A DNA stretch of 64,000 nt from a virus. Below, one piece after another: positions 26,974 to 46,219 of this stretch. The DNA is taken from the IMG/VR virus record IMGVR_UViG_3300009059_000716, positions 30,823 to 94,822 of that record; one strand, given 5' to 3'. Positions within the stretch are counted from its first letter, which is position 1; every line of letters starts with the position of its first letter. The position numbers and the translations under genes are program-made. The notes beneath the pieces are model-generated. The model was not told the origin of the DNA and did no database searches. It saw only the letters and a program-made list of their open reading frames with translations.

Positions 26974-27501
26974 ATGGTTACTGAAAAAACGTTATTCTCA
27001 CAACAAGATTGCGAATACATTAAATCATTTTATGATGTAGCAATTGAGAAGAACGAAAAAGGTTTCAAAATAAACTCAGACAAATACCCACAAGGTATAG
27101 CAATAAAAGACGGTTCAGCAGTATCATGGAATGAAATCCAAAACGATACTCTGGACCGTTTCTTGTTAAGTAAGCTTATAGAGTTAGAAATAACTTCACT
27201 CCCTTATCTTAAGCTAATGAAGTACGGAGTCGGAAATGAAATGAAACCTCATAGAGATTTTCAGGCATATGATACAAGTACAATCTATAGATCAACAACA
27301 ATACAGCTAACCAGTCCGGAAGATTATAAAGGAGGAGAGTTATATGTAGAAGGAGTAAAAGCTAGTAATATACAAGGAACTGCAATTATGTTTAACCCCT
27401 ATCAAACACATTGGGTTACAGAGATTACTGAAGGAGAAAGATGGGTTATAGTAGCTTTTTTAGAAGAGTTTCATTTTAATACTAAGAAAAGTTTATTATG
27501 A
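26974..27501 (+). CDS. 2OG-Fe(II) oxygenase
   Basis: HRD..YKGGEL..HWV..GER; ends KKSLL. Confidence 0.9.
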   Translation: MVTEKTLFSQQDCEYIKSFYDVAIEKNEKGFKINSDKYPQGIAIKDGSAVSWNEIQNDTLDRFLLSKLIELEITSLPYLKLMKYGVGNEMKPHRDFQAYDTSTIYRSTTIQLTSPEDYKGGELYVEGVKASNIQGTAIMFNPYQTHWVTEITEGERWVIVAFLEEFHFNTKKSLL

Positions 27502-28007
27502 TTGATCAAAAAGTATTATTTACAGCAGAAGAATGTGAGTGGTTGAAATCCGCACAATCAACTATATACCCACCAGTAGAAGATACTAAATGGTGGGAGT
27601 CACATCGTATAAATTATAGATTTAAAAATATACAAGAAAGAGAAGTATTTGAACAGTCACGTTTAGATTTTGTTGCTAGTAGAGTTAAACAATTAGGAGT
27701 GAAATCTGTTCCTACATATAAAATTATACATTACGGTAAAGGTGGATTCTTCGCCCCTCACATAGATTCAGGGAGAAACCATCCAATTAGAAGAAAAACA
27801 TTATTAGTGCAGCTATCCTCTAAAGAAGATTATTCTGGAGGTGATATGTATGTTAAGGGTGTACTTTTTGAAAAGACAATAGGCAATACAATATTATTTG
27901 ATTCGTCATTAACTCATGAACTAAAATTAATAGAAGGAGGAAATAGATTAGTTATGGTCACATGGTTATCTATTTATAACCTTGAGAATCCTAAAACTTT
28001 ACTATGA
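27498..28007 (+). CDS. 2OG-Fe(II) oxygenase
   Basis: HID..YSGGD..HEL..GNR; ends PKTLL. Confidence 0.9.
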   Translation: MIDQKVLFTAEECEWLKSAQSTIYPPVEDTKWWESHRINYRFKNIQEREVFEQSRLDFVASRVKQLGVKSVPTYKIIHYGKGGFFAPHIDSGRNHPIRRKTLLVQLSSKEDYSGGDMYVKGVLFEKTIGNTILFDSSLTHELKLIEGGNRLVMVTWLSIYNLENPKTLL

Positions 28008-28528
28008 TAACAGTTAAACATAACGTACTGTCGGATAGAGAGGTAAACAAGCTACTCACTTTATGGTATGATACAAAACCTAACCATATTATAACAGACG
28101 GCTATAAGTATAATATTGAAGCAGTAGAGATTTTAGACTACATAGATAAATTAAAACTTTCGTATTCTTTTCCAAAAGAACACTATAGGGACTTTATACT
28201 ACAGACAATAGATGAAACACATAGCAAAGCTCCTAATCATGACAAATATCACCGACATGAAAATGAATGGACATATGTTATGTACTTAAATGATAACTAT
28301 CAAGGAGGAGAAATAGAGTTTACTAATGGAACTATCATTAAACCACAAGTAGGAGATGTTATATACTTTTCACCTGAAGAAGGACATAGAGTTAAACCCC
28401 CATATGATTTTACCGAACAGTATTTTAAACACAACGGTAAGAGTATTCTTATGAATAAAAGATGGTCACTTGTCGGATTCATGAATTCTGACATTATAAA
28501 CGAGAATAAAAAAACATGCTTAATTTAA
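28004..28528 (+). CDS. 2OG-Fe(II) oxygenase
   Basis: HRHE..YLNDNYQGGE..HRV..R; ends KKTCLI. Confidence 0.85.
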   Translation: MITVKHNVLSDREVNKLLTLWYDTKPNHIITDGYKYNIEAVEILDYIDKLKLSYSFPKEHYRDFILQTIDETHSKAPNHDKYHRHENEWTYVMYLNDNYQGGEIEFTNGTIIKPQVGDVIYFSPEEGHRVKPPYDFTEQYFKHNGKSILMNKRWSLVGFMNSDIINENKKTCLI

Positions 28529-29220
28529 TTTATACCTATTCAATCAAACTTAGCGGTAACAGTATAGAAAAATACGTTAAACTCCTAAATAAAGCATACC
28601 TACATAACAGTAAGTACCATTCTATAGTACTATATACCGATAGGGAGACATTACCGTATGTAGAAGATATTTTTCCGGAGATAAGATTAGTAGAAATAGA
28701 CAATCTTCAATTTATGGATGATATAAAAATGAAGATTATAGATAAACTTGAAAGCAATAGTATACTTACAGATTACGATATCTTTTTAAACTCACCTTTA
28801 ATACTTCCAGACAATTTTGATGTGTATGTAGATAGAAGAGGTAAGGTAAAAGAGTTAGTACTGTACAGCCATTTGTTTGAACATTTAAGACATGAAGGTT
28901 ATGGTATTTTTACTAAAGATGTAAATACCTATTTGAATGTAGGTATATTAAAAATCAACAGTGAACATAAAATAAAAGCTATTAAAGACGCATATTACGC
29001 TTTAAGAAATTGGTATGTGGATAATAAAATAGAAGAAAGAACTCAATTTACATACCATACAGGAGTATGCCCTTCTATAGCAGCTTTACAGTACAATTTA
29101 GATAAAATAGCTACTATAAGTAACTGGAAAGTATGTGAGATGAAAAAATACAACAACTACCATCATTTAGTTGGAGAAGATAAATTTAAAGAAATAAGCA
29201 CAAAAAATACTGTGATTTAG
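28516..29220 (+). CDS. DxD nucleotide-diphospho-sugar transferase-like protein (DUF6734-like)
   Basis: VLYTD, K, TDYD, NVGI, YHHLVG; ends KNTVI. Confidence 0.6.
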   Translation: MLNLIYTYSIKLSGNSIEKYVKLLNKAYLHNSKYHSIVLYTDRETLPYVEDIFPEIRLVEIDNLQFMDDIKMKIIDKLESNSILTDYDIFLNSPLILPDNFDVYVDRRGKVKELVLYSHLFEHLRHEGYGIFTKDVNTYLNVGILKINSEHKIKAIKDAYYALRNWYVDNKIEERTQFTYHTGVCPSIAALQYNLDKIATISNWKVCEMKKYNNYHHLVGEDKFKEISTKNTVI

Positions 29221-29251
29221 TTGTCAAAACAGTATATTTTTCATATATTTA
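29220..29251 (+). promoter_or_regulatory. Bacteroidota-like phage promoter
   Basis: GTTG-N20-TATATTTA. Confidence 0.6.
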
Positions 29252-29280
29252 GATATATTAATCTATTAAAGACAAATGTT

Positions 29281-29469
29281 ATGAACAAATTATTTTTTGT
29301 ACCTTCAACCAAAATTAACGCAAGAATTGCCGACACTGTTGTTACAGGACAGCATATTACAGTAGAAGGGTTAACTTACCAAATGGTATCAAAAAGACCA
29401 CTTGGAAGAAGAGTACTAAGACGTCTAATTAACGAATCTACAAATACAAAAATTGTAATCTATTCATAA
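29281..29469 (+). CDS. 62-aa hypothetical protein
   Basis: gttATG at 29281; the TTG at 29221 lies inside the promoter. Confidence 0.6.
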   Translation: MNKLFFVPSTKINARIADTVVTGQHITVEGLTYQMVSKRPLGRRVLRRLINESTNTKIVIYS

Positions 29470-29473
29470 CCAA

Positions 29474-30262
29474 ATGAAAGCAATATATAGCTACAAAATA
29501 TTCTCAGACCAACGTAAACCTTTAGATAAAACGTTTTGGAAACTAGCTGCATATAGTGTTAAGTCTGCTTCTAAGTATTATAGAACAGTTCTGTACTCCG
29601 ATGAAGAAAGTGGAAAGCTATTTGATAGACACGGAATTTATTTTGATGAGTATCATATTCTTCCTGAAATAGAAAATTATAAAGGAAGGGTTTATAGTGT
29701 ACCAAAAATATATGCAATGATTGCTGAGAAAGAGCCATATATTCATTTAGACTTTGACTCTGTAATACTGGAAGAGATTATATCTACACACACTATTACA
29801 TACGCATATACAGAAGTTGATTTAATAAATCTAGCAGGGTATGCTAGAATAGATTACGTATTTGGAGGATATGTAAGACCTTATCGAGACTTGTTGGTTG
29901 ATATATTTAAGGATGATATAATATATCCTGATTTTAATATAGTACCTAACCATTCTTTTCTGATGGTAAAAAATCCAACTATTGTTAGAGAGATTTACAA
30001 AAGAATACTCAGTAAAATACCAGCGGACATATTAGAAGAAGTAAGCCCTACATTATTAGAGCAATGTCTACTTTACCTATACTTAAAAGAAAATCAAACA
30101 GATATAGGATACTTAAGTTGGTATTCAGCAGAGAAGTTTTTAGAACGTGAGTTCGGTTCTTATAAATTTATACATTTACCATTTTACAACGAACCGGAAA
30201 AGAAAGAAGAAGTAGAGTTTGTTCTTAAAAAACTTGAAGAACAATTCGGCCCAATCGAATAA
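29474..30262 (+). CDS. DxD transferase-like protein (DUF6734-like)
   Basis: VLYSD, SVPKIYA..EPYIHLDFD, EQ, FIHL. Confidence 0.7.
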   Translation: MKAIYSYKIFSDQRKPLDKTFWKLAAYSVKSASKYYRTVLYSDEESGKLFDRHGIYFDEYHILPEIENYKGRVYSVPKIYAMIAEKEPYIHLDFDSVILEEIISTHTITYAYTEVDLINLAGYARIDYVFGGYVRPYRDLLVDIFKDDIIYPDFNIVPNHSFLMVKNPTIVREIYKRILSKIPADILEEVSPTLLEQCLLYLYLKENQTDIGYLSWYSAEKFLEREFGSYKFIHLPFYNEPEKKEEVEFVLKKLEEQFGPIE

Positions 30263-30277
30263 CAGTTATACCTTATT

Positions 30278-30628
30278 ATGAAAATTAAAGAGCTACTTTT
30301 AGGAGCCGTGTTATTTACTCTCGGACAGAGCATAGCCTGGTACCAGACTAATGGGCAATTTATAAGTAGTTGGATAAAAGAACATCCGTTACTTATGTCG
30401 GCAATAGTTGGAGTACCTGTTGGGATGTGTTATATTTACGGAACAACGTACACAGTAAGTGCTTTTGAAGGAGAATTATGGCCGGCAAGAATTATAGGAT
30501 TTACAACTGGTATATTTTCCTTTACAGTTCTTACTACACTACACTTAAATCAGACAATCGACCTTAAGACAGGTGTCATACTTAGTCTTGCAATTATAAT
30601 TATTTTACTACAAGCTTTTTGGAAATGA
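30278..30628 (+). CDS. Small 4-TM membrane protein
   Basis: Four hydrophobic segments. Confidence 0.7.
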   Translation: MKIKELLLGAVLFTLGQSIAWYQTNGQFISSWIKEHPLLMSAIVGVPVGMCYIYGTTYTVSAFEGELWPARIIGFTTGIFSFTVLTTLHLNQTIDLKTGVILSLAIIIILLQAFWK

Positions 30629-31509
30629 ATTTTTTAGATAGTCAATATCAAGACCTCCTCAAATACATTATTGAGAAAGGTCAAATAAAAGAAGATAGAA
30701 CCGGAACCGGAACATTATCAGTATTTGGTAGACAATTTAGACATGAGATGTCATTAGGCTTTCCTCTCCTAACAACAAAGAAGATAGCAGTCAAAACTAT
30801 GATGACTGAACTGAAATGGTTTCTAAAAGGAGATACTAATATCAAGTATTTAGTTGATAACGGTTGTAATATTTGGAATGGTGATGCTTATAAGAATTAT
30901 AGAAATAAGTTTGAACCAGCCCCTTATCAATTTACTCCAGATACAATGGAAGAGTTCATCAACAAAATCAAAACCGATGATGAGTTCGCAGAGGAGTGGG
31001 GTGAGTTAGGTCCAATATATGGAAAGCAATGGACTGATTGGAATGGTATAGACCAGATATTAAATCTTCTTAACTCAATAAAGAAGAACCCAAATAGTAG
31101 AAGATTGATGGTATCGGCTTGGAATGTAGGTGAATTACATGAGATGACATTACCTCCTTGTCATTACGGATTCCAGATAAATGTTAGAGGAGAGTATTTA
31201 GACCTAATGTGGAATCAAAGAAGTGTAGATACATTTTTAGGAGTACCTTTTAATATAGCCTCATATGGTCTGCTACTTAGTCTAATAGCGTATGAGACAG
31301 GTTATAAGCCTGGTTCTCTCATAGGATCTCTAGGAGATACACATCTATACACAAACCATATAGAACAGGCGAAGGAACAGATAAAAAGAACTTCATTTGA
31401 TCTTCCTACTCTTAAGATTATTTCATCTGATATTCTAAATGGAGAGTTTGAAGTAGAGTTTGAGAACTATATTTCACATCCTGCAATAAAAGCACCTTTA
31501 TCAAATTAA
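30625..31509 (+). CDS. thyA: Thymidylate synthase
   Basis: DRTGTGT, FPLLTTKK, LGPIYGKQW, SRR, LPPCH, QRSVD..LGVPFN. Confidence 0.97.
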   Translation: MNFLDSQYQDLLKYIIEKGQIKEDRTGTGTLSVFGRQFRHEMSLGFPLLTTKKIAVKTMMTELKWFLKGDTNIKYLVDNGCNIWNGDAYKNYRNKFEPAPYQFTPDTMEEFINKIKTDDEFAEEWGELGPIYGKQWTDWNGIDQILNLLNSIKKNPNSRRLMVSAWNVGELHEMTLPPCHYGFQINVRGEYLDLMWNQRSVDTFLGVPFNIASYGLLLSLIAYETGYKPGSLIGSLGDTHLYTNHIEQAKEQIKRTSFDLPTLKIISSDILNGEFEVEFENYISHPAIKAPLSN

Positions 31510-31510
31510 A

Positions 31511-31542
31511 GTTTGTAGTCTGAATTATTCTTCTTATATTAA
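31511..31542 (+). promoter_or_regulatory. Phage early promoter cassette
   Basis: GTTTG-N19-TATATTAA-GGTA. Confidence 0.7.
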
Positions 31543-31565
31543 GGTAGTTAAAAAAAGAAAAGGTT

Positions 31566-31931
31566 ATGCATTTAAGAACTACAAGAAGATTAGCTGAGAA
31601 GTATTTAAACAATTGTGAGAAAGTTTACGGATTAAGTAAGTTTCATGATAGCACTCCTTACATAGAGTTTCAACCTTATGTTCATTCTGTTTACACAGAA
31701 GATGATAATCCAATTGCAGAGTATATCTTTGACTATAATACTATTGTAATATACTATAAGAATATTCACAGTGCAGAAGATTTAGCTCAAACTATCGTTC
31801 ATGAATACCAACACTACTTACAATCACCAAGCTGGATGACTAGATACTATAATATGGGCTTCTGTTATTCAGACCATCCATATGAAATAGCAGCATTTAA
31901 TGAAGAGAAAAATTGGAAATTAGTTGCTTAG
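31566..31931 (+). CDS. Zincin-like metallopeptidase domain protein
   Basis: HEYQH..Q...HPYEIAA. Confidence 0.7.
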   Translation: MHLRTTRRLAEKYLNNCEKVYGLSKFHDSTPYIEFQPYVHSVYTEDDNPIAEYIFDYNTIVIYYKNIHSAEDLAQTIVHEYQHYLQSPSWMTRYYNMGFCYSDHPYEIAAFNEEKNWKLVA

Positions 31932-31979
31932 TTAAAGTACATTTCACTATTTATTAAGAACTAAACTAAACTAGAATAT

Positions 31980-32792
31980 ATGGCATGTGGTTGTGGAAGA
32001 TCTCCAGACGGATGTAGAGGCTGGCACTCTTTAACAGAAGAAGAATTCAAAGTAGAATATGATGCGTTTCTAAAAGAAAAAGATGGTATCTTAAGAGTAA
32101 AAGAGGTAGAACATTATACCGATACTCTATTCAAATTCAAGTTAACTAAAACAGACGAATATAAATTTAAGGCCGGACAGTTTACAATGTTAAATGTAGA
32201 CGGTGCACCAAAAAGAGCTTATAGCTATACAAGTGGTCCGGAAGATGATTTTATAGAGTTCTATAGTATAAAGGTACCAAATGGACCTCTTACAAGTAAG
32301 CTTCAGAAGATACAAGTAGGAGACTTTGTAAATGTTTCTCCAAAAGCTACTGGAACACTCATAGTAGATAATCTTACAGAAGGAGACGATTTATGGTTAC
32401 TTGCTACAGGAACTGGAATTGCACCATTCATTAGTATGTTATGTGATCCTTTAACTTACGACAGATTTAAAAACATTCATGTTGTATGGTCGGTAAGAGT
32501 AAAAGAAGAACTAGACGCTTTTCATGATTGGTTAGGAAGTATAGGAATAGATTATATTCCAATTGTTACTCGAGATGATAGATGGGAAGGAGAGAAAGAA
32601 AGAATAACAACTCTTATTCAAAGAGGAGACATAATGAAAGATAGTACTCCAGATAATGATAAAGTAATGCTATGCGGTAATATGGACTTCAACAAAGAGA
32701 TAAAAAATCTACTTGTTGACGAAAGAGGATGGGTAGAAGGTAATAGTAGACAAGCAGGATCATTTGCTTTAGAGAAAGCTTTTGTTGGATAA
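31980..32792 (+). CDS. fpr: Ferredoxin/flavodoxin-NADP+ reductase with N-terminal CDGSH-like Cys/His finger
   Basis: RAYS, GPLTS, ATGTGIAPF, MLCGN, EKAF; N-terminal CGCGRSPDGCRGWH. Confidence 0.9.
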   Translation: MACGCGRSPDGCRGWHSLTEEEFKVEYDAFLKEKDGILRVKEVEHYTDTLFKFKLTKTDEYKFKAGQFTMLNVDGAPKRAYSYTSGPEDDFIEFYSIKVPNGPLTSKLQKIQVGDFVNVSPKATGTLIVDNLTEGDDLWLLATGTGIAPFISMLCDPLTYDRFKNIHVVWSVRVKEELDAFHDWLGSIGIDYIPIVTRDDRWEGEKERITTLIQRGDIMKDSTPDNDKVMLCGNMDFNKEIKNLLVDERGWVEGNSRQAGSFALEKAFVG

Positions 32793-32795
32793 AAA

Positions 32796-32827
32796 GTTGC
32801 TGCAATGGACTATTATTCTTATATTAA
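32796..32827 (+). promoter_or_regulatory. Phage early promoter cassette
   Basis: GTTG-N20-TATATTAA-GGTATAATT. Confidence 0.75.
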
Positions 32828-35641: not shown

Positions 35642-35820
35642 AGTTAGTATATACTCAAGAGACTATCAACTACATGGCTAAAATTAATCCTCAACTCATA
35701 GAAGATCTAGCCAAATACGGAGCACCAGAACCAGTCGAACTATTAGATGATAAGGGAACTATAATAAACAAGTACTATCTATATAATATTAATGAAGATA
35801 CTTCCGAACATATTAGCTAA
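35638..35820 (+). CDS. Hypothetical protein
   Basis: Coupled ORF. Confidence 0.55.
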   Translation: MKLVYTQETINYMAKINPQLIEDLAKYGAPEPVELLDDKGTIINKYYLYNINEDTSEHIS

Positions 35821-36322
35821 AGAATATGTTTCTTCTATACTTTCTAAACAAAAGCAGTTAGGGTATAAAGGAAGAGAATCATCTCCTATACATTTGAATT
35901 CTGCTATTGTAGAATGGAATATAGAAGGATATTGGAATAATGATGATGCAGTAGTACTTTCATTTGAAGATAAAGGCTTCGTATTTCTTCTATATACTTT
36001 TCAAAAGGATATAAACGGAACAGATAAACTCTACTGCGAAATAAGGCACATAGTAACATTAGAACAGTATAGAGGACAAGGTACCGGTAAGCAGTTAGTA
36101 GAAGCAACTGCAAAACACATGAAAGAGAGAGATTGTCAAATCTTAAAAGTCCTTTCAGATATTAAATCTAAAAACTTCTACATTAAAAATGGATTTGAGG
36201 TTTCCGGAATAACAAAGCACGGACTATCCTACTTCTGTAATGATATTACTTCTAGGAGAAATGTTTCAATGCCTGCTAGTGATTTTCCTTTTATGACTAA
36301 TTCTCCTAAATCAATATTATGA
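35792..36322 (+). CDS. GNAT acetyltransferase
   Basis: QYRGQGTGKQL, NFYIKNGF; ends PKSIL. Confidence 0.85.
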   Translation: MKILPNILAKEYVSSILSKQKQLGYKGRESSPIHLNSAIVEWNIEGYWNNDDAVVLSFEDKGFVFLLYTFQKDINGTDKLYCEIRHIVTLEQYRGQGTGKQLVEATAKHMKERDCQILKVLSDIKSKNFYIKNGFEVSGITKHGLSYFCNDITSRRNVSMPASDFPFMTNSPKSIL

Positions 36323-36840
36323 GAGGTATAATTAGAAATGTACTCAATCAATCTGATATAGACTCTATTTTTAAACTATATAATGAGTCTTCTAATATTG
36401 TTGAATTATATGGAGAGTTAAAAAATAGACATAACATTTCAAGTAATTTAGGAATGTTTCTTTTATCACATTTTACACAAAAAGAGTTTCAACCATTCCT
36501 TTCTAAAATTATACCTTCAATAGAAGCTAAAGAAAGAATTGAATTAGAAACTACTTCATGTAGGGTACTTAAATACACGAAAGATTGCTTTATTTCAAAA
36601 CATAGAGACATTAAAACTTCAGAAGCCAATTCAAGCCTTTCGGTAATAATACAGCTCTCTAATCAAGATGAGTACGTAGGAGGAAAAGCGATTATAGACG
36701 GAGAAGAAAGTATACTACAGCAAGGTGATTTAGAGTATTATACCTATAGTTACGAACATGAAGTTACTAAAATATTTTCCGGTTGTAGGTATGTTATTAA
36801 CTTACGAATTAATATCAAAAAAGATTCAACTTTAATATAA
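36319..36840 (+). CDS. 2OG-Fe(II) oxygenase
   Basis: HRD..YVGG..HEV..GCR; ends KDSTLI. Confidence 0.9.
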   Translation: MRGIIRNVLNQSDIDSIFKLYNESSNIVELYGELKNRHNISSNLGMFLLSHFTQKEFQPFLSKIIPSIEAKERIELETTSCRVLKYTKDCFISKHRDIKTSEANSSLSVIIQLSNQDEYVGGKAIIDGEESILQQGDLEYYTYSYEHEVTKIFSGCRYVINLRINIKKDSTLI

Positions 36841-40516: not shown

Positions 40517-40536
40517 AAATATTATTCTTATATTTA
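40505..40536 (+). promoter_or_regulatory. Phage early promoter cassette
   Basis: GTTT-N20-TATATTTA-GGTATAAT. Confidence 0.65.
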
Positions 40537-40537
40537 G

Positions 40538-40666
40538 GTATAATAGTTGGGGTAAGTATATCGGTATGGAGCAAGTCCGATGTTAAAGAGTCCCTAGAGA
40601 GTAATTGGCTGAAATCATCCTAACCCTACCAGAAGTTAGGTTTCAACTCACTACCCAACATTATAC
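40538..40666 (+). ncRNA. Candidate ~130-nt multi-branched small RNA/leader
   Basis: Basal stem GTATAAT.GTTGGG.TA / TACCCAAC.ATTATAC; inner stems ATCGG/CCGAT, GAGT/ACTC, TGAAA/TTTCA, CCTAAC/GTTAGG; then T6. Confidence 0.5.
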
Positions 40667-40692
40667 TTTTTTAAACTAAACAAATAAAGGTT

Positions 40693-40815
40693 ATGATTGA
40701 AACAAGAGAACTACTTAGAGAAGAATTAAGATTACTACTTGACGGTACAAACAATGTAGCGGAGACAGTAGAAGAGATCATCGCACACATCAGATGGAGA
40801 GAAGATAATTTATAA
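40693..40815 (+). CDS. 40-aa hypothetical peptide (not in ORF track)
   Basis: aaataaaggttATG leader; MIETRELLREELRLLLDG... Confidence 0.6.
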   Translation: MIETRELLREELRLLLDGTNNVAETVEEIIAHIRWREDNL

Positions 40816-40835
40816 TTCTAAAACAAATAAAAGTT

Positions 40836-41066
40836 ATGGCAACAGGATACAATTCAGTAATTAAGATCGAATGTATAAAAGGTTTCATTCCGGAAGGAGG
40901 AGATCTAGTAATAATGAAAGGAGATAGATTCTATCAATCTTCAGACTTCAGCGATGATTGGATTGGAGAGGTAGATGGAAGAATGGAAGGAATGATTATA
41001 TCTTTCTACACAGAACAACTAGCAAATAACTTTCAATTTGTAGGTAGAAAAATCTCCTTATATTAG
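40836..41066 (+). CDS. Hypothetical early protein
   Basis: aaagttATG. Confidence 0.65.
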   Translation: MATGYNSVIKIECIKGFIPEGGDLVIMKGDRFYQSSDFSDDWIGEVDGRMEGMIISFYTEQLANNFQFVGRKISLY

Positions 41067-41097
41067 TAGGTTCGTATTGATATTCTTCTTATATTAA
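41066..41097 (+). promoter_or_regulatory. Phage early promoter cassette
   Basis: GTAG-N20-TATATTAA. Confidence 0.8.
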
Positions 41098-41122
41098 GGT
41101 ATAGAAATTAAAAATAAAGGTT

Positions 41123-41629
41123 ATGACAATTCAAAACGTATTATCATTAGAGAATTTAGTAGATGTTCAAGCGGTATTATCTGCAGCAACAAGAAGGGTA
41201 ATTGAGTTAAAAAATAACTTACCATCCTTTCCGGAAGTTAAAAAGCAGGCTGTTACTTTGAAGAAAGAGTTCAGAGCTTTAGTAAACGACGATTCTAAAT
41301 ACTATAATGACGATTTGACTGGCCGTGTTGAGATGATGAAGAATGAAGACGGGTCTAGATATTATGAAGGTTCGTTTAAAGTTATACCTTCAACAGGTCA
41401 AGAAGGAGTATATGATGAGGATTTGGGTTCACTTGCCGGACAGCCTAGATATGGATACAAATTTCAACTTGATTCTCCAGACCAGACATTAGAGATTGTT
41501 AATAAAGTATTACCAAAAGGATGGACTACAGAAGTTAAAATCGATAAGGGCTTAGTTCATGAAGGTGACGATTTAGTACCTTATTCTTCTTATTTAGTAA
41601 GTGTAAAATCTCCAAACTTTTTTAAGTAA
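41123..41629 (+). CDS. Hypothetical early protein
   Basis: Own promoter cassette. Confidence 0.7.
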   Translation: MTIQNVLSLENLVDVQAVLSAATRRVIELKNNLPSFPEVKKQAVTLKKEFRALVNDDSKYYNDDLTGRVEMMKNEDGSRYYEGSFKVIPSTGQEGVYDEDLGSLAGQPRYGYKFQLDSPDQTLEIVNKVLPKGWTTEVKIDKGLVHEGDDLVPYSSYLVSVKSPNFFK

Positions 41630-41632
41630 ATA

Positions 41633-41664
41633 GTTGTTTCGTATTGATATTCTTCTTATATTAA
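41633..41664 (+). promoter_or_regulatory. Phage early promoter cassette
   Basis: GTTG-N20-TATATTAA. Confidence 0.8.
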
Positions 41665-41689
41665 GGTATAATTAAAAACAATAAGAGTT

Positions 41690-42202
41690 ATGGCAAATTA
41701 TTTATCAGTAAACAAAAAGTATTCATCGTTTAATTCTCAACTTGCTCAGTCAGAAAAGAATGACTGCTTTGTAAGAGCGTTAGCTGTTGCAGGTGAAACA
41801 GATTATCAAACAGCTCATCAAATAGCTAAAGATGTATTTGGAAGAAGAGAGAAGAAAGGAACTTTAGGTTATATGATTCACTCTGCATTCTTAAAAGCAG
41901 AAGCTGCAGGAATGATGTTAGGAGGTAAAAAGCTTGAGGTAGCGGTATTAGGTAGAAGAGATACCAAAAATAGATATAAGGTTAAAGGAGAAGTAATTTG
42001 GAGACAAAAGACTCTAAAAAGCTTTATCGAATCTCATCCAGTAGGAAATTATATCGTTACAGTTGCCGGACATGCATTAGCAGTAATAGATGGAGAGTTA
42101 GCAGATTGGTCTAAAGAAGGATTCAAACCTACTCGTAAAGTTCAAGCAGCTTATAGAGTTCATCCTCAACAAATAGCATCTCAATTAAGTCTATTTGAAT
42201 AG
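41690..42202 (+). CDS. Hypothetical protein with possible papain-like Cys/His/Asp arrangement
   Basis: NDCFVRALA...GHALAVIDG..D. Confidence 0.55.
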   Translation: MANYLSVNKKYSSFNSQLAQSEKNDCFVRALAVAGETDYQTAHQIAKDVFGRREKKGTLGYMIHSAFLKAEAAGMMLGGKKLEVAVLGRRDTKNRYKVKGEVIWRQKTLKSFIESHPVGNYIVTVAGHALAVIDGELADWSKEGFKPTRKVQAAYRVHPQQIASQLSLFE

Positions 42203-42221
42203 GAAAATAAATGGGGAAAGG

Positions 42222-42253
42222 GTTGCTAGATCGATCCTTTCTTCTTATATTTA
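42222..42253 (+). promoter_or_regulatory. Phage early promoter overlapped by a stem-loop (42213-42244)
   Basis: GTTG-N20-TATATTTA within GGGGAAAGGGTTG/CGATCCTTTCTTC. Confidence 0.7.
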
Positions 42254-42281
42254 GGTATAATAATTAAAACAAATCATTTTT

Positions 42282-42500
42282 ATGTTCTACCAAATTAAAA
42301 ACACCTCAAAATTAAAATTTAATTTAATTGCTGTGAATTCAAAAAGCAAAATCTTTAACGCTATAAAAGAAGCTGGTTGGGTTGCATCTGAATGCAAAAT
42401 AATTGCAATGGATGATTCATTAAAAAATACATTCACAAATATTAAAACTGGCAATCGCAATAAAAAAGGACGCCAATTTGCAATGAGAGCGGGGGTTTAA
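42282..42500 (+). CDS. Basic hypothetical protein
   Basis: Own promoter. Confidence 0.6.
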   Translation: MFYQIKNTSKLKFNLIAVNSKSKIFNAIKEAGWVASECKIIAMDDSLKNTFTNIKTGNRNKKGRQFAMRAGV

Positions 42501-42516
42501 AAAACCTCAAATAGTA

Positions 42517-42548
42517 GTAGGTTTGTATTAATATTCTTCTTATCATAA
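42517..42548 (+). promoter_or_regulatory. Variant early promoter
   Basis: GTAG-N20-TATCATAA-TGTATAGAAATT. Confidence 0.6.
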
Positions 42549-42573
42549 TGTATAGAAATTAAAAATAGAGGTT

Positions 42574-42765
42574 ATGAGAGATTCAATCGCATTTAGTTCA
42601 AAGCATTTAAACCATGAGCGTATTGCTCAAGAGATCTTCGAAACATTCAACATTCGAGAGATAGGATTTGGTATCGTTAGATTTAAACTCAATCAGATGG
42701 GAATTACTGATGTAGAAGACATAAAAAAAGTTACGGATTTAGTTATGAAAAAGTTGGACGTCTGA
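42574..42765 (+). CDS. Hypothetical early protein
   Basis: gaggttATG. Confidence 0.65.
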   Translation: MRDSIAFSSKHLNHERIAQEIFETFNIREIGFGIVRFKLNQMGITDVEDIKKVTDLVMKKLDV

Positions 42766-42784
42766 GTTATTCTTCGTAAATTAA
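42753..42784 (+). promoter_or_regulatory. Variant early promoter
   Basis: GTTG-N20-TAAATTAA-GGTATAGAAATT. Confidence 0.65.
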
Positions 42785-42809
42785 GGTATAGAAATTAAAA
42801 ATAAAGGTT

Positions 42810-43130
42810 ATGACGATTCAAGATCAAGCAAAGCAATTAAAGAACGACGTTAAGCAATTTATTAATGGAGGATATGTTTGGATGCACAAAAGAAAGGCTG
42901 CCAAATGGACAGGTGGAGGAGAGTATTATGTAGTTGCTTTCCAAACATTAGAGAAGGAGAACAAAGAAGAGGACTTAATTACTCTACAATCATTAATACT
43001 TCCAGAAGGTTGGGTTGCATATTGGACAGGTTTCAGAATTGAACTTTATAAGAGAATAGGAGAAGGAGATTTACAGTTGGATGATATACAATATAAACAT
43101 TTTACATTAGAATTCGAAAAATTACAATAA
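42810..43130 (+). CDS. Hypothetical early protein
   Basis: Own promoter cassette. Confidence 0.7.
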   Translation: MTIQDQAKQLKNDVKQFINGGYVWMHKRKAAKWTGGGEYYVVAFQTLEKENKEEDLITLQSLILPEGWVAYWTGFRIELYKRIGEGDLQLDDIQYKHFTLEFEKLQ

Positions 43131-43194
43131 GAGTAGAAAGGGGAATGGCGTTTTTCTCTCCCCGACGAAGTCGCCACGCGCATTTTTAACGAAA
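43131..43194 (+). repeat. CpG-rich structured element copy A (core CGAAGTCGCCACG)
   Basis: Similar to 44442-44500; CGAC-GAA-GTCG triloop hairpin. Confidence 0.6.
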
Positions 43195-43210
43195 CTTTTC
43201 TTTAAATAAA

Positions 43211-43242
43211 GTTGGTTCGTATTAGATTTCTTCTTATATTAA
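43211..43242 (+). promoter_or_regulatory. Phage early promoter cassette
   Basis: GTTG-N20-TATATTAA. Confidence 0.8.
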
Positions 43243-43267
43243 GGTATAGAAATTAAAAATAAAGGTT

Positions 43268-43522
43268 ATGACTTATTACACAGCATTAGTTTTAGTTGAA
43301 AGAAAGAACGCTTTTACAAACCGTATAAATAAGGTTAAAGAAAAATACGTAGTAGAAGCTAAATACGATTCAGAAGTAGAATCAAAAGTACTTTCTTATT
43401 TTGAAAATGGTGGAGGGGTATGGAACACGACAATGAAAGATGGTTCGGTAGTTAATGTATCAGGTAATGTTCTTAGTGTTTTAAGTATTACTCGCACTAC
43501 AGTTGAAGGAGTAATAGTATAA
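43268..43522 (+). CDS. Hypothetical early protein
   Basis: Own promoter cassette. Confidence 0.7.
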   Translation: MTYYTALVLVERKNAFTNRINKVKEKYVVEAKYDSEVESKVLSYFENGGGVWNTTMKDGSVVNVSGNVLSVLSITRTTVEGVIV

Positions 43523-43537
43523 ATTAAAATAAAGGTT

Positions 43538-43813
43538 ATGAGTAAATTTAAAACATTCGAAGACATTACTTGGAAAGCACACCAACTTGGAAAAGGTGCA
43601 ATTCAAGGATTATTAATGCTAGATAATGGCATAGAATTATCTATTGTAGCAGGACAGGGGATGTATAGCACACCCCGTGAAGATTTAGGTTCACCCGATT
43701 TACACTCATCATTTGAAGTTGCAATATTTGATAAAAAGGGTGATATGGTTGATGATGTGTTAGGGTGGCAATCGAGAGAGGATATAAATAACTTAATTCA
43801 AATACATTCCTAA
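43538..43813 (+). CDS. Hypothetical early protein
   Basis: aaataaaggttATG; NG..LSIV..YS..FEVAI..V.GW. Confidence 0.7.
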   Translation: MSKFKTFEDITWKAHQLGKGAIQGLLMLDNGIELSIVAGQGMYSTPREDLGSPDLHSSFEVAIFDKKGDMVDDVLGWQSREDINNLIQIHS

Positions 43814-43835
43814 AGTATAATACAAAATAAAGGTC

Positions 43836-44021
43836 ATGCCAAAGAAGAAATTAGCATTAGATTCAGAATCACATTTACATTTATTAACTCATTTGTTTGA
43901 TATCGAAGCGATGATTGAACCGGGTGAAGATATAATGCTTGATAGAGCATTAGAGAAACTAATTGAAGAGGTTAGGTTTTCGGATATAATTGTCTCATAT
44001 AAACTAATGAAAGATGAGTAG
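43836..44021 (+). CDS. Hypothetical protein
   Basis: aaaggtcATG. Confidence 0.6.
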   Translation: MPKKKLALDSESHLHLLTHLFDIEAMIEPGEDIMLDRALEKLIEEVRFSDIIVSYKLMKDE

Positions 44022-44154
44022 AAGTTATTGGGGATGTGAAATGGAATCTCCTATCTATCGAGAGGTAGCAGAAGAGATGAGGTTGAAGAAGGAACCATAT
44101 AGTCTTCAGAGTAATGAAAAGACTAAGAGAGGTAAGAAGAGTAATAAAGTCTAA
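44014..44154 (+). CDS. 46-aa hypothetical peptide (not in ORF track)
   Basis: Overlaps upstream stop; MSRSYWGCEMESPIYREVAEEMRLKK... Confidence 0.45.
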   Translation: MSRSYWGCEMESPIYREVAEEMRLKKEPYSLQSNEKTKRGKKSNKV

Positions 44155-44170
44155 CATTAATAAAACGTTT

Positions 44171-44371
44171 ATGAAAGAAGGTAGTTACGAAGAAGTAAAG
44201 TATGGAGATGAGACATTTAAAATAGATAAGTCGACAGGTAAGATTGAGACGAACTATACAATGAAGAACTCTCAAGGAAGGACAATAAAGCAAGAAGAGG
44301 ATAGTGCTAAGATAATAGGCATTGCTATAATAGCTTTGATTGTATTAGGAATCGTTTTAGTATTTGTATAA
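44171..44371 (+). CDS. Small protein with C-terminal TM helix
   Basis: IIGIAIIALIVLGIVLVFV; ATG at 44171 avoids overlap. Confidence 0.55.
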   Translation: MKEGSYEEVKYGDETFKIDKSTGKIETNYTMKNSQGRTIKQEEDSAKIIGIAIIALIVLGIVLVFV

Positions 44372-44441
44372 GATGGATGATGAAAGGATTTACAAAGCGA
44401 TAGAAGATTCTATTTTAGAGGAGTGGAAGAGGACGGAGTTG

Positions 44442-44500
44442 GAGTGAGGGGGCGCTTTCCTCTCTCGACAACGAAGTTGTCACGCGCATATTTCACGAAA
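44442..44500 (+). repeat. CpG-rich structured element copy B (core CGAAGTTGTCACG)
   Basis: GACAAC-GAA-GTTGTC triloop hairpin then CACGCGCATATTTCACGAAA. Confidence 0.6.
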
Positions 44501-44735
44501 GGTCCTACCATCCTTCCTTACATTCTACAATAAGGACAAATATGTGATAACAAGCAAAGCTTGTCTCTGAGGTAGTTAGTGATTTGGGTGAACACTTCAT
44601 ATTAAACCCTAACGAACCTATAAGAGAGATAAGGATACATATGGTAGATAGAGGGTAAATGGCTTATTTCTACTTAAGTATAGAACATATTGTAAGTGTA
44701 TAGATAATACCTAATGGAGACAACGCTATATGGGG

Positions 44736-44805
44736 TTAAAGACATCTAAAGATTATCTATAGAAACCTAAAGACAACTAAAGAAGAACTAAAGATTCTAT
44801 ATAGA
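44736..44805. repeat. Helically phased CTAWAGA heptamer array (7 copies)
   Basis: Starts at 44736, 44746, 44757, 44767, 44777, 44788, 44799 (mean spacing 10.5 bp); first and last copies differ at position 1. Confidence 0.75.
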
Positions 44806-44927
44806 TCAATAGGAATAGAGTGTGTAGAATAATGAAGGCTTGTGAATGGAATGAGATATATAAAGTACAGGCGTGTGCCTCCCTCCCTTCCCTTTTCAAA
44901 ATTCTATAGAAAATATATGGTCAAATA

Positions 44928-44959
44928 GTTGCCGGCCTGCCATATTCTTCTTATATTAA
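44928..44959 (+). promoter_or_regulatory. Phage early promoter cassette
   Basis: GTTG-N20-TATATTAA. Confidence 0.8.
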
Positions 44960-44983
44960 GGTATAATTAAAAAGATAAAGGTT

Positions 44984-45337
44984 ATGACTTATTCAGAGAG
45001 AGTAAAAGCAGCTAAGACAATCATCAACGCAGTTAAGGTATTAAAGGACAAAGAGTACATCGTTGTAACTTATGGTACAGATTACAATAACGTACCTCAG
45101 GAGTATAGGATTTCTTGCAGCATATACAAAGAGGGTAAGCCTTCTTATAGCATTTACCGTAATGAGGTATGGGCTTTAGGTGGTATGAACATAGAGTCAT
45201 TTACCAATACATTGGCTAAGGCTTATACTTACGATATGATGAGACAGAGAACTGCTTATAACTTTCCATTGTGTGAGATGGTATTAGTAGAAGAGCCTTT
45301 TAAAGAACAAGTTAATACTAGTGAGTGGGGTATCTAA
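44984..45337 (+). CDS. Hypothetical early protein
   Basis: Own promoter cassette. Confidence 0.7.
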   Translation: MTYSERVKAAKTIINAVKVLKDKEYIVVTYGTDYNNVPQEYRISCSIYKEGKPSYSIYRNEVWALGGMNIESFTNTLAKAYTYDMMRQRTAYNFPLCEMVLVEEPFKEQVNTSEWGI

Positions 45338-45362
45338 AGAGAATCTAAAGAGAGTCTATAGA
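45333..45362. repeat. Triple TCTAWAGA repeat, copy 1
   Basis: TCTAAAGA-gaa-TCTAAAGA-gag-TCTATAGA (11-bp period). Confidence 0.75.
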
Positions 45363-45622
45363 TGAAAGAAAGAATAACTATACAAATAGATAGAGAGGTA
45401 GCTGAGACCATAAAGGAGTTATATCCAGATATGTCTTATACAGTAGCTCTAAGGCTATTACTTGATACATCTAAAGAGAGTCTAAAGAAAGTCTATAGAC
45501 CTCCTACCATACATACGCCTACTACAGACAATATGGCTAGTCTAGATGATATAAAGGAATTAAAGGATAAGTTCTCTTCTGTACTGGACAACCTAATCAA
45601 AAAGAATAAGTTAAAGGTATAA
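45362..45622 (+). CDS. Ribbon-helix-helix-like DNA-binding protein
   Basis: RITIQID strand, EVAETIKEL helix, SYTVALRLLL helix. Confidence 0.55.
   Translation: MKERITIQIDREVAETIKELYPDMSYTVALRLLLDTSKESLKKVYRPPTIHTPTTDNMASLDDIKELKDKFSSVLDNLIKKNKLKV
45470..45499. repeat. Triple TCTAWAGA repeat, copy 2 (inside the RHH-like gene)
   Basis: TCTAAAGA-gag-TCTAAAGA-aag-TCTATAGA. Confidence 0.75.
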
Positions 45623-45793
45623 GAGAGATTCCGGAAATTAGTAGGGTAGGTTTATATCACCTTGATGGCACCTTGCTATAACACTGCCAGTATAGTTCCC
45701 TAAGAGGTTGGGCATCGGCTCGGCTGCGCCATACCTGGTTTCATATTTCTGATGATTTTTCACTATATAGGGTTATATATATTTATATATTGT

Positions 45794-46219
45794 TTATATA
45801 ATAGAGATTGTAGAACCAAATACCGTCAAAGATATACGTGTACCTTGTTGTATCTTAGGAAGTCTATGTAGAGTAGTAGAACTAAACACTCCTTCCTCCA
45901 TCTCAAAGCCATTTACTACTAATTTAGTATTACATTCAGAGGGTTTTAACTCGCATACATACGCCCATTTACGCCTAAAGTTATTATCCATATGTTCGTT
46001 AAAGAAGTCTCCTTCCTTCCATGTGTGTATATGGTAGGTATCGTATTCAGTTGATATATCAATACCTTCAAATGAGTATATATGTTCTTTTAATTCCTTA
46101 TGGAAGGGTACTTTACTGTAATGTGTATTAGTATACTTATAACTTCTATCTGGCCGATTATATGATTCTTGGTCGATATTTCTATTTCGTATAAACCAGT
46201 CTTTATATTCTTGTTTCAT
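45794..46219 (-). CDS. 2OG-Fe(II) oxygenase; only credible minus-strand gene
   Basis: HMD..LHRL..GTRISL; ends STISII; has a minus-strand promoter. Confidence 0.8.
   Translation of the reverse strand: MKQEYKDWFIRNRNIDQESYNRPDRSYKYTNTHYSKVPFHKELKEHIYSFEGIDISTEYDTYHIHTWKEGDFFNEHMDNNFRRKWAYVCELKPSECNTKLVVNGFEMEEGVFSSTTLHRLPKIQQGTRISLTVFGSTISII

What the first reader, a model, noticed from the sequence alone, without database searches (positions are those of the whole stretch)
26974..46219. Shared C-terminal tag [STC]-hydrophobic-[LI]-COOH on seven modifying enzymes at three separate loci
Seen: C-termini are NTKKSLL (26974), NPKTLL (27498), KKTCLI (28004), TKNTVI (28516), SPKSIL (GNAT 35792), KKDSTLI (36319) and GSTISII (minus-strand 45794). 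That is all five 2OG-Fe(II) oxygenases plus a GNAT and a DxD transferase-like protein, usually with Lys just upstream. I found no other credible gene in the window ending this way (closest: baseplate RITTL). The tails extend beyond the catalytic folds and occur on three unrelated folds, so common ancestry does not explain them all. Established: S/T-x-hydrophobic-COOH is the class I PDZ-ligand pattern, and C-terminal peptides act as degrons (Tsp/Prc, Clp) or cargo-loading signals. Inference: a docking code that recruits dispersed tailoring enzymes to one scaffold or substrate (for example the ATP-grasp/Hint protein or the 46-aa protein), loads them into the virion, or marks them for timed proteolysis.
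Basis: partly seen in the sequence, partly recalled or inferred. Interest (0 to 1): 0.9.

Follow-up and report, generated by a model that had tools for sequence, protein, structure and literature searches.

The report
Shared C-terminal tag on phage enzymes
Seven modifying enzymes of this uncultured phage, and hundreds of enzymes of unrelated folds in related phages, end in the same short tail (about Lys, Ser/Thr/Asn, Leu/Ile, Ile/Leu); the tail is kept by selection and marks the genes encoded beside one self-cutting ligase-like protein, so it looks like an undescribed recognition label whose reader is not yet known.

Summary
All seven products end [STC]-[LIV]-[LI]. No other credible gene in the 94.8-kb contig does (7 seen, 0.73 expected, P=1e-5).

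Five of the seven are paralogous PF13640 oxygenases, and the tail is a hallmark of their phage subfamily: 91 of 149 distant representatives end this way, usually exactly 19 residues after the 2OG-binding Arg. Without them, the window's own statistics are weak (2 of 154, P=0.16).

Related phages provide the cross-fold evidence. Genes just downstream of the homologue of the 734-aa Hint protein and its 46-aa partner end in two hydrophobic residues in 61-88% of cases at each of the first six positions. These genes include SET, radical SAM, GNAT, Rossmann-like, methyltransferase and unknown families. Families are either about 95-100% tagged or 0% tagged. Residues and codons vary while the motif persists, so selection acts on the protein.

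I favour docking onto the ligase-like/Hint plus 46-aa module. A complex model gave only weak support (0.40; best control 0.01). No PDZ domain was found in the phages. A degron or a packaging signal is not excluded.

I found no paper describing the tag. This scan has already reported the same tag on at least ten other genomes.

The parts
26974..27501 (+). 2OG-Fe(II) oxygenase 1 (175 aa), ends NTKKSLL. It is the first gene after the 46-aa ORF.
   Evidence: PF13640 E=1.2e-9. Eleven orthologues at 65-98% identity keep K-[SNT]-[LVMI]-[LVI] while positions -5 to -8 vary. AF2 with the deep alignment gives pLDDT 92.8, and 77 for the last five residues, which have no secondary structure.
27498..28007 (+). 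2OG-Fe(II) oxygenase 2 (169 aa), ends NPKTLL. Its stop overlaps the next start (ATGA).
   Evidence: PF13640 E=1.2e-9. The orthologue in L005 ends KKDFI. Codons are listed.
28004..28528 (+). 2OG-Fe(II) oxygenase 3 (174 aa), ends KKTCLI. The T-C codons contain the ATG of the next gene.
   Evidence: PF13640 E=2.4e-8. Codons.
28516..29220 (+). 234-aa protein of unknown fold, ends TKNTVI. It belongs to a 234/243-aa family that carries the tag in every phage examined.
   Evidence: No Pfam or PHROG hit and no match to the oxygenase profile. Homologues at 27-29% identity end NKRIL, NKSII and TTKLL. Orthologues end TKNT[AVI]I or, after an indel, ITKTLL. Tail PSSM p=5e-4.
35792..36322 (+). GNAT acetyltransferase (176 aa), ends SPKSIL. 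Second locus.
   Evidence: PF13508 E=3e-10 and PF00583 E=7e-9. Orthologues at 73-97% identity keep KS[IV]L after a variable linker. L005 has NPNSIL, and a 46% homologue ends KNRLV. Taken alone the tail is at chance level.
36319..36840 (+). 2OG-Fe(II) oxygenase 4 (173 aa), ends KKDSTLI. Second locus; followed by a 64-nt spacer.
   Evidence: PF13640 at 25.1 bits (below cut-off) but family profile E=2e-32. The L005 orthologue ends KKSNTLI.
45794..46219 (-). Short divergent 2OG-Fe(II) oxygenase 5 (141 aa), ends GSTISII. Third locus, a lone minus-strand gene.
   Evidence: Family profile E=1.3e-10. The tail starts only 13 residues after the Arg. A 66% orthologue ends STKHKHLLL, so sequence and length differ but the basic-plus-hydrophobic end is kept.
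24609..26813 (+). 734-aa protein. Its N-domain (aa 1-289) is conserved but unassigned and opens MKGTLFS..LLEINTDT. Hint-type self-cleaving domains follow. It heads the cassette in every related phage and is the candidate reader or scaffold of the tag.
   Evidence: PT-HINT E=4.5e-29 and other Hint models from aa 454 onward. Residues 1-450 have no Pfam hit; the N-domain (aa 1-289) has no PHROG or PDB-sequence hit. The Atlas gives only leads (0.80-0.82) to ATP-grasp, TTL and GSP_synth clusters. Homologues at 41-50% identity lie directly upstream of tagged genes.
26819..26959 (+). 46-aa protein (VYKSF...NLFKAKHL) conserved between the Hint gene and the first tagged oxygenase. It is the candidate substrate, carrier or adaptor.
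   Evidence: Alignment A6 has 11 phages with Y5, K6, F37, K42, K44 and H45 invariant. A small ORF ending K-x-K-H follows the ligase directly in 33 of 47 metagenome loci.
24439..24543 (+). Frameshifted remnant of the 3' end of a sixth oxygenase gene, still reading ...IMFLRQENLQIKSGLI-stop.
   Evidence: tblastn with the intact 173-aa L005 gene (3429-3950) gives 55% identity over its last 38 residues, E=2.6e-7.

Best explanation
The tail, about K-[S/T/N]-[L/I]-[I/L]-COOH with a further K or N upstream, is a selected recognition tag specific to one gene module.

Shown:
- It sits on a flexible end outside the catalytic core.
- It is kept at the protein level on enzymes of many unrelated folds.
- It is concentrated on genes encoded next to one conserved pair: a ligase-like/Hint self-cleaving protein (24609-26813) and a 46-aa protein (26819-26959).

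Inferred:
- The free hydrophobic C-terminus plugs each interchangeable tailoring enzyme into a common partner. The enzymes include hydroxylases, GNAT, the 234-aa family and, in relatives, SET and radical SAM enzymes.
- That partner is most likely the ligase-like/Hint protein holding the 46-aa protein. The enzymes would then act in turn on one substrate, much as proteins share a sliding clamp or clients share the CIA targeting complex.
- In this window the tag marks the main cassette (26974-29220) and also recruits three dispersed genes (35792, 36319, 45794) to the same module.
For: The tag is real.
- 7 seen against 0.73 expected in the contig.

It is inherited and constrained in the oxygenase family.
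- 91 of 149 representatives of 50%-identity clusters end [STCN]-hydrophobic-hydrophobic.
- The Arg-to-C-terminus distance is 19 residues in 80 of 149.

It spans unrelated folds in other phages.
- In five independent loci, 17 of 141 non-oxygenase ORFs carry the relaxed motif against 2.4 expected (P=3e-10). With K at -4 the count is 10 against 0.25 (P=1e-13).
- Tagged families include SET, radical SAM, SIS, 2OG-FeII_Oxy_5, epimerase-like, class I methyltransferase and several unknown families.

It is tied to the module.
- All six distinct viral contigs (eight new loci) found with an oxygenase query carry the Hint gene and small ORF directly upstream.
- 33 of 102 ORFs within 6 kb downstream carry the tag against 11 of 308 elsewhere (Fisher P=1e-13).
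- In 49 metagenome clusters, positions +1 to +6 end in two hydrophobic residues in 61-88% of cases, against 6-30% at positions -2 to -8.

Selection acts on the protein.
- Gene families are bimodal, about 95-100% tagged or 0% tagged, and residues vary within the motif.
- Ser at -3 uses both TCN and AGT codons.
- Indel variants keep the motif.

The tail lies outside the fold.

Binding model of ligase + 46-aa protein + oxygenase: weak support.
- Score 0.40 (runs 0.47, 0.40, 0.30); best of three controls 0.01.
- The mark was reached by 58 of 80 solved complexes and 2 of 110 mismatched pairs. At 0.60 or under it was reached by only 7 of those 80 and by both mismatches that passed.
- The runs agree in at least 36% of contacts. 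Partner pLDDT is at least 72. No interface was given.
Against: - No reader has been shown. The complex pass is weak and does not say that the tail is the contact.
- The N-domain has no recognisable fold by sequence.
- Within this window alone the cross-fold signal is not significant (P=0.16), and the GNAT tail is at chance level.
- The fixed 19-residue spacing, and the rise of tail pLDDT to 77 with a deep alignment, could mean that in the oxygenases the tail packs on its own domain.
- Some tagged genes lie far from the ligase gene. In this window they are 9 and 19 kb away. A complete 198-kb phage has about eight dispersed tag-like ends of unknown function.
- A basic stretch followed by apolar C-terminal residues also resembles known bacterial degrons (from my own knowledge).
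Confidence: 0.45

Rival explanations
1. The tail is a degradation tag. A basic stretch followed by apolar C-terminal residues would be read by a host AAA+ protease (ClpXP, FtsH or Lon). The tailoring enzymes would then be short-lived, giving timed proteolysis.
For: The logo K-K-[S/T/N]-[L/I]-[I/L]-COOH resembles the MuA-type ClpX signal RRKKAI. It also fits the old rule that apolar C-terminal residues destabilise cytoplasmic proteins (both from my own knowledge, not tested here). The tail is exposed and flexible. No phage-encoded PDZ-type reader was found.
Against: A general host degron would not need to be confined to genes beside one ligase-like/Hint gene. It would also not be expected to be all-or-none by gene family. 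Early genes elsewhere in the same contigs lack it. Nothing here measures stability.
Confidence: 0.15
2. The tail is an address tag read by something other than the ligase module. Examples are loading of the enzymes into the capsid or onto a virion part, or targeting to a host structure such as the ribosome or nucleoid, whose proteins these enzyme classes typically modify.
For: There is cross-fold, protein-level selection for a free C-terminal motif. The enzyme classes (P4H-like hydroxylase, SET, GNAT, radical SAM) are classic protein modifiers. Tag-like ends are dispersed in a complete genome.
Against: There is no candidate reader. The tight synteny with the Hint/46-aa pair points to a reader inside the module. 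Known capsid-targeting signals of T4-type phages are N-terminal (my own knowledge).
Confidence: 0.12
3. The tail is a chemical handle rather than a docking peg. The ligase-like domain, or the thioester chemistry of the Hint domains, would act on the tag's free carboxylate or its conserved Lys and join the tagged enzymes covalently to the 46-aa protein or to another acceptor.
For: The motif ends exactly at the C-terminus in nearly all members, so the carboxylate probably matters. Lys at -4 is the most conserved position (58% of 182 tags; 'nearly invariant' in alignment A1). Atlas leads link the N-domain to ATP-grasp, TTL and GSP_synth clusters, which are carboxylate-amine ligases (0.80-0.82, a lead only). 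Hint domains are present.
Against: ATP-grasp membership is not established. N and K often replace S/T at -3, so that residue is not a required nucleophile. There is no evidence of any covalent product.
Confidence: 0.1
4. There is no shared function. The tail is an inherited structural end of the oxygenase fold. Elsewhere it is a by-product of AT-rich codon usage, overlapping stop/start junctions, or chance.
For: Five of the seven are paralogues with a family-wide tail at fixed spacing. Tail pLDDT reaches 77 with a deep alignment. The window's non-oxygenase count is not significant. Of 171 tagged genes with a downstream ORF, 104 overlap it, and last codons are biased towards NNA.
Against: An internal-tripeptide null drawn from the same AT-rich proteins still gives P=3e-10 to 1e-13 for non-oxygenase genes. 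Many other overlapping genes of the same contigs lack the motif. Residue order is fixed (K, polar, hydrophobic, hydrophobic) while codons vary, including both Ser codon families. GNAT, SET and radical SAM share no fold with the oxygenases.
Confidence: 0.05

Closest known systems
CIA targeting-complex recognition motif, [LIM]-[DES]-[WF]-COO- of eukaryotic cytosolic Fe-S proteins (PMC10245660; PMC11974842)
   Same: A three-to-four-residue motif at the free C-terminus, shared by unrelated enzymes, recruits them to one multiprotein complex. That is the working logic proposed here.
   Different: The sequence differs (acidic and aromatic there; basic, polar and aliphatic here). It is eukaryotic and serves cofactor delivery.
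Class I PDZ-binding motif X-[S/T]-X-hydrophobic-COOH
   Same: All seven window tails fit it formally: S, T or C at P-2 and an aliphatic residue at P0 at a free C-terminus.
   Different: Across 182 tags only about 45% have S or T at P-2; N and K are common. P-1 is also constrained to L or I. No PDZ_2 match was found in this contig or in three complete phages that carry the cassette, and no PDZ (PF00595) match in this contig.
ClpX C-terminal recognition signal of the MuA type (RRKKAI-COOH) and apolar C-terminal degrons (my own knowledge)
   Same: Lys-rich residues are followed by aliphatic residues at the extreme C-terminus of a phage or transposon protein.
   Different: Those signals are read by a host unfoldase and are not tied to a gene module. 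Here the tag is restricted to genes around one ligase-like/Hint gene, and nothing about stability has been tested.
Tool-belt recruitment by sliding clamps through C-terminal clamp-binding motifs (QL[SD]LF; the C-terminal tails of the T4/RB69 polymerase) (my own knowledge)
   Same: Short C-terminal hydrophobic peptides on unrelated enzymes share one docking site. Some family members even end ...KSLF or ...KTLF.
   Different: The conserved Gln is absent. No polymerase in this contig carries the tag (none was identified; no other credible ORF ends this way). No gp45-type clamp domain was found.
Tandem 2OG-Fe(II) dioxygenase arrays of cyanophages such as Syn9 (Iyer et al. 2010, PMC2938197)
   Same: These are phage-encoded clusters of several dioxygenases, predicted to modify peptides or metabolites.
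   Different: That paper, as far as I searched it (passages on phage, ATP-grasp and SET domain), mentions no shared C-terminal tag and no Hint/46-aa pair. Cyanophage S-8S53 and phage Melnitz oxygenases end GPHWK or GKPVR, not in the tag.

Membership tests
2OG-FeII_Oxy_3 (PF13640), PiuC/YbiX and prolyl-4-hydroxylase-like fold | HxD...H iron triad and a 2OG-binding Arg on the last core strand; double-stranded beta-helix fold | tested here: met
   H93, D95, H146 and R156 are invariant or nearly invariant (H93 in at least 90% of sequences) across the five paralogues and their relatives. The AF2 model's best PDB matches are 3dkq, PiuC (9ghl) and P4Hs, at E=8e-9 to 1e-6.
GNAT acetyltransferases (for 35792-36322) | Match to the GNAT acetyl-CoA-binding core | tested here: met
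   PF13508 E=3e-10, PF00583 E=7e-9 and PF13673 E=3.5e-8, all above their cut-offs.
Class I PDZ ligand | S/T at P-2 and a hydrophobic residue at P0 at a free C-terminus | tested here: inconclusive
   Met by all seven window tails. In the 182-tag logo, P-2 is S 31%, T 14%, N 15% and K 13%.
Class I PDZ ligand | A PDZ-domain reader is available | tested here: not met
   PF13180 and PF00595 are absent from this contig. PF13180 is also absent from three 100%-complete phages that carry the cassette. Host PDZ proteins could not be tested, and they are mostly periplasmic (my own knowledge).
Peroxisomal targeting signal 1 | [SAC]-[KRH]-[LM]-COOH read by Pex5 | tested here: not met
   The residue order is reversed: K precedes S/T, and two aliphatic residues follow. 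The carriers are phage proteins in bacteria.
CIA targeting-complex recognition motif | [LIM]-[DES]-[WF]-COO- | tested here: not met
   There is no acidic or aromatic position in the logo. The resemblance is in working logic only (PMC10245660).
Clamp-binding motif (beta clamp or gp45) | Q-L-[SD]-L-F or a similar motif, and a clamp in the system | tested here: not met
   Gln is not enriched at -5. PF09116 was not found in this contig or in five related records. No other credible ORF of the contig, replication genes included, ends in the tag.
ClpX C-motif-2 / apolar C-terminal degron | Tail-dependent degradation by a host AAA+ protease | not testable with these tools
   There is only a sequence resemblance to RRKKAI (my own knowledge).
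ATP-grasp / GSP-synthetase-like ligase (N-domain of the 734-aa protein, the candidate reader) | Recognisable ATP-grasp fold and nucleotide- and Mg-binding motifs | tested here: inconclusive
   There is no Pfam hit in residues 1-450, and no PHROG or PDB-profile hit for the N-domain (aa 1-289). Atlas feature scores of 0.80-0.82 to ATPgrasp_YheCD, TTL, ATP-grasp_3 and GSP_synth clusters are leads only. An invariant L-E-x-N-T-D-T at residues 20-27 is compatible.
Hint / intein-like self-processing domains (C-terminal part of the 734-aa protein) | Match to Hint models, with Cys1 and a terminal His-Asn | tested here: met
   PT-HINT E=4.5e-29 and Intein_splicing E=6e-21. C462, C599, H460-N461 and H594-N595 are invariant in 10 phages. 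Self-cleavage itself was not tested.

The most novel reading that the evidence does not exclude
The cassette is a phage-encoded protein-conjugation or scaffolded-tailoring machine. The ligase-like/Hint protein would process itself and hold the 46-aa protein. It would use the K-[S/T/N]-hydrophobic-hydrophobic-COOH tag either to dock or to join covalently a changeable set of hydroxylases, methyl-, acetyl- and radical-SAM enzymes. Phages could then swap tailoring enzymes in and out simply by giving them a four-residue end.
Probability: 0.12. Interest if true: 0.95.

Novelty: new variant of a known kind. Interest (0 to 1): 0.8.

Why it matters
If the tag is a docking code, it defines a large, undescribed functional module of uncultured aquatic T4-like phages. 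The ligase N-domain alone has 480 relatives in one metagenome scan.

It also gives a simple sequence rule for finding every enzyme that belongs to the module, including genes scattered elsewhere in the genome and families with no annotation.

It could finally suggest what the long-known tandem dioxygenase arrays of marine phages work on.

A four-residue plug that attaches arbitrary enzymes to one scaffold would also be a compact tool for protein engineering.

The claim is directly testable with peptides and pull-downs, without needing to culture the phage.

Tried and rejected
- A DNA search of the cassette against 50,697 phage records found no match. A tblastn search with the ligase N-domain found none either. 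Cultured phages hold only distant oxygenases with other C-termini.
- The search for related loci with the 56-sequence alignment failed because no stretch was conserved enough. A narrower alignment worked.
- Hidden homology as an explanation: a 149-sequence oxygenase profile does not match the 234-aa protein or the GNAT. Rejected.
- A DNA-level signal (promoter, junction or recombination scar): no shared nucleotide motif at the seven gene ends. Codons vary, and Ser uses both codon families. Rejected. The bias to NNA in the last codon is explained by ATGA overlaps.
- Translational-coupling constraint: the tagged genes at 36319 and 45794 have no overlapping or abutting downstream gene (28516 abuts only a doubtful TTG-start ORF). 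Many overlapping genes elsewhere lack the motif. Rejected as the main cause.
- Purely structural last strand: AF2 gives no secondary structure for the last seven residues. This is not excluded for the oxygenases, but it cannot explain the other folds.
- PDZ and gp45 clamp searches found nothing.
- The ligase N-domain gave nothing against Pfam, PHROGs or a PDB sequence profile.
- Pfam on eight dispersed tag-like proteins of a complete relative was mostly blank. Whether those belong to the module is open.
- The genome-contig scan gave one hit, a 2.8-kb contig binned with a Cyanobium MAG. That is too weak to name a host.

Full report
**Source and setting.** The window is bases 30823-94822 of a 94.8-kb linear IMG/VR phage contig, estimated 58% complete, with 30-35% G+C. 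Nearly all genes are on the plus strand.

**The observation.** Translating the seven ORFs gives exactly the quoted C-termini.
- I called 159 non-overlapping ORFs on the whole contig. Only one other ends [STC][LIV][LI], a 55-aa antisense ORF that is probably spurious.
- The same tripeptide occurs at 0.46% of internal positions. That gives 0.73 expected against 7 seen (P=1e-5).
- Five of the seven are the only PF13640-type 2OG-Fe(II) oxygenases of the contig.
- One is a GNAT.
- The 234-aa protein has no family assignment, so 'DxD transferase-like' is unconfirmed.

**What explains the five oxygenase tails.** They are 18-29% identical paralogues with the HxD...H triad and the Arg.
- A profile search of 1.84 billion representatives found 10,264 relatives.
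- Of the best 149 clusters, 91 end [STCN]-hydrophobic-hydrophobic, and most of the rest end in two hydrophobic residues.
- The distance from the 2OG-binding Arg to the C-terminus is exactly 19 residues in 80 of 149.
- Eleven orthologues of 26974 (65-98% identical) keep K-[SNT]-[LVMI]-[LVI] while the four residues before it drift.
- So the tail is a hallmark of this viral subfamily. Another subfamily, in cultured cyanophages and phage Melnitz, ends GPxF[RK] or similar instead.
- Once the five paralogues are removed, the window's own evidence for sharing across folds is weak: 2 of 154 against 0.70 expected, P=0.16.
- With a PSSM built only from external sequences, the 234-aa tail scores p=5e-4. 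The GNAT tail scores only p=6e-3, about one such hit expected by chance.

**Is the tail part of the fold?**
- AF2 with 11 sequences gives pLDDT 86.7. The last strand is 156-163, and residues 173-175 fall below 50.
- With 56 sequences the model reaches 92.8. Residues 161-170 score 95 and the last five (KKSLL) score 77, still without secondary structure.
- The fold resembles PiuC/YbiX and prolyl hydroxylases.
- The tail therefore lies outside the core. In the oxygenases it may rest on the domain.

**The evidence from other phages.** A search of viral contigs with a subgroup of the oxygenase family returned six distinct phage contigs not previously seen.
- Their non-oxygenase neighbours also end in the tag. 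These include SET-domain proteins, a radical SAM enzyme, a SIS protein, a 2OG-FeII_Oxy_5 protein and several unknown families.
- Enrichment among 141 non-oxygenase ORFs is 17 against 2.4 expected (P=3e-10). With Lys at -4 it is 10 against 0.25 (P=1e-13).
- All these loci have the same head. A homologue of the 734-aa Hint protein (41-50% identical) is followed by a 45-47-aa ORF, then a tagged oxygenase, then a run of tagged genes.
- Pooled over ten loci, 33 of 102 ORFs within 6 kb downstream carry the tag against 11 of 308 elsewhere (Fisher P=1e-13).
- A metagenome scan with the N-domain found 480 relatives. In 49 clusters at or below 90% identity, ORFs at positions +1 to +6 end in two hydrophobic residues in 61-88% of cases. 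Upstream positions -2 to -8 do so in 6-30%.
- Gene families are all-or-none: oxygenases 96% (n=73), SET-like 95% (n=41) and the 234/243-aa family 93% (n=30). Radical SAM, epimerase-like and several unknown families are also tagged, while core families are at 0%.
- The window's 234-aa protein belongs to the tagged 234/243-aa family. Its homologues at 27-29% identity end NKRIL, NKSII and TTKLL.
- The logo from 182 tags is: -5 K 39% / N 18%; -4 K 58%; -3 S 31% / N 15% / T 14% / K 13%; -2 L 43% / I 34%; -1 I 62% / L 30%.

**Protein-level or DNA-level signal?**
- The seven gene ends share no nucleotide motif, and their junctions differ: ATGA overlap, 13-nt overlap, direct abutment, a 64-nt spacer, and a lone minus-strand gene.
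- Across the 182 tags, Ser at -3 is encoded by both TCN and AGT codons. L and I interchange.
- The only DNA-level trace is a bias to NNA in the last codon, which follows from frequent ATGA overlaps.
- Indel variants keep the motif: ITKTLL for TKNTVI and STKHKHLLL for STISII.
- Selection therefore acts on the peptide.

- No PDZ domain or gp45-type clamp domain is encoded in this contig. PF13180 and PF09116 are also absent from three complete phages that carry the cassette.
- The N-domain of the 734-aa protein has no Pfam, PHROG or PDB-sequence match. The Atlas gives only low-score leads to ATP-grasp, TTL and GSP-synthetase clusters.
- One complex job (734-aa protein, 46-aa protein, and oxygenase 26974 as the partner) gave weak support. 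The score was 0.40 (runs 0.47, 0.40, 0.30) against a best control of 0.01.
- That mark was reached by 58 of 80 solved complexes and 2 of 110 mismatched pairs. At 0.60 or under it was reached by only 7 of the 80 and by both mismatches that passed. The runs agree in at least 36% of contacts, partner pLDDT is at least 72, and no interface was reported.
- Given the invariant synteny, I take this as modest support that the oxygenase binds the module. It is not evidence that the tail is the contact.

**Verdict.** The tag is real, selected and module-specific (about 0.9).
- Docking onto the ligase-like/Hint plus 46-aa module is my best mechanism (0.45).
- The rivals are a degron (0.15), another reader such as virion or host targeting (0.12), a covalent handle for the ligase or Hint chemistry (0.10), and no shared function (0.05).

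**Literature and earlier scan notes.**
- The papers I searched describe cyanophage dioxygenase arrays (PMC2938197) and an analogous eukaryotic C-terminal recruitment tripeptide (PMC10245660). None describes this tag.
- Earlier notes of this scan report the same tag around the same ligase/Hint gene on at least ten other genomes.
- I had reached the cross-phage pattern before reading those notes. One of them prompted the complex job.

Noticed in passing
window 24439-24543 (+): Frameshifted remnant of the last ~38 codons of a sixth oxygenase gene, still ending ...LRQENLQIKSGLI-stop. The gene is intact in the related contig (L005:3429-3950). This is gene decay just upstream of the Hint gene.
   Followed up: yes
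window 24609-26959 (+): The 734-aa protein and the 46-aa ORF form an invariant pair in every related phage examined. In the 734-aa protein, the N-domain invariants include L-E-x-N-T-D-T at residues 20-27 and G289-G290 just before the first, Cys-less Hint unit. In the small protein, Y5, K6, F37, K42, K44 and H45 are invariant. The function of both is unknown.
   Followed up: partly
window 29221-29469 (+) and 29474-30262 (+): An 82-aa TTG-start ORF ends ...TKIVIYS and has small homologues in at least three other phages (ends ITIYS, VLIYG, ILIFN). A 262-aa protein with a weak DUF6734 match (E=9e-6, below the cut-off) follows the tagged run but lacks the tag.
   Followed up: no
contig bases 8399-9457, 21-22 kb before the window start: A 352-aa radical SAM protein ending PTKYNI is 42% identical to a tagged radical SAM enzyme (ending EKTLI) that sits inside the cassette of another phage (L013:12509-13558). 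Here it lies among nucleotide-modification genes and has lost, or never had, the tag.
   Followed up: no
P0017 (GNAT orthologue fragment): One metagenomic GNAT orthologue reads ...NPNSILWKVL, which is the tag followed by four more residues. This could be a read-through or a sequencing variant, and is possibly a natural 'capped' tag.
   Followed up: no
L111 (CAYNGR010000277.1, 2.8 kb): The only hit for the ligase N-domain in 185,579 prokaryote genomes is a short, high-coverage contig binned with an uncultured Cyanobium MAG. It is probably phage DNA in the bin and gives only a faint host hint.
   Followed up: no
G003 (IMGVR_UViG_3300021962_000023, 198.5 kb, complete): Besides the cassette next to the ligase gene (192267-195007), about eight other ORFs scattered over the genome end in tag-like K/N-x-hydrophobic-hydrophobic. 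Two are weakly GDSL-like and the rest have no Pfam hit. They may be dispersed members of the module, like the second and third loci of this window.
   Followed up: partly
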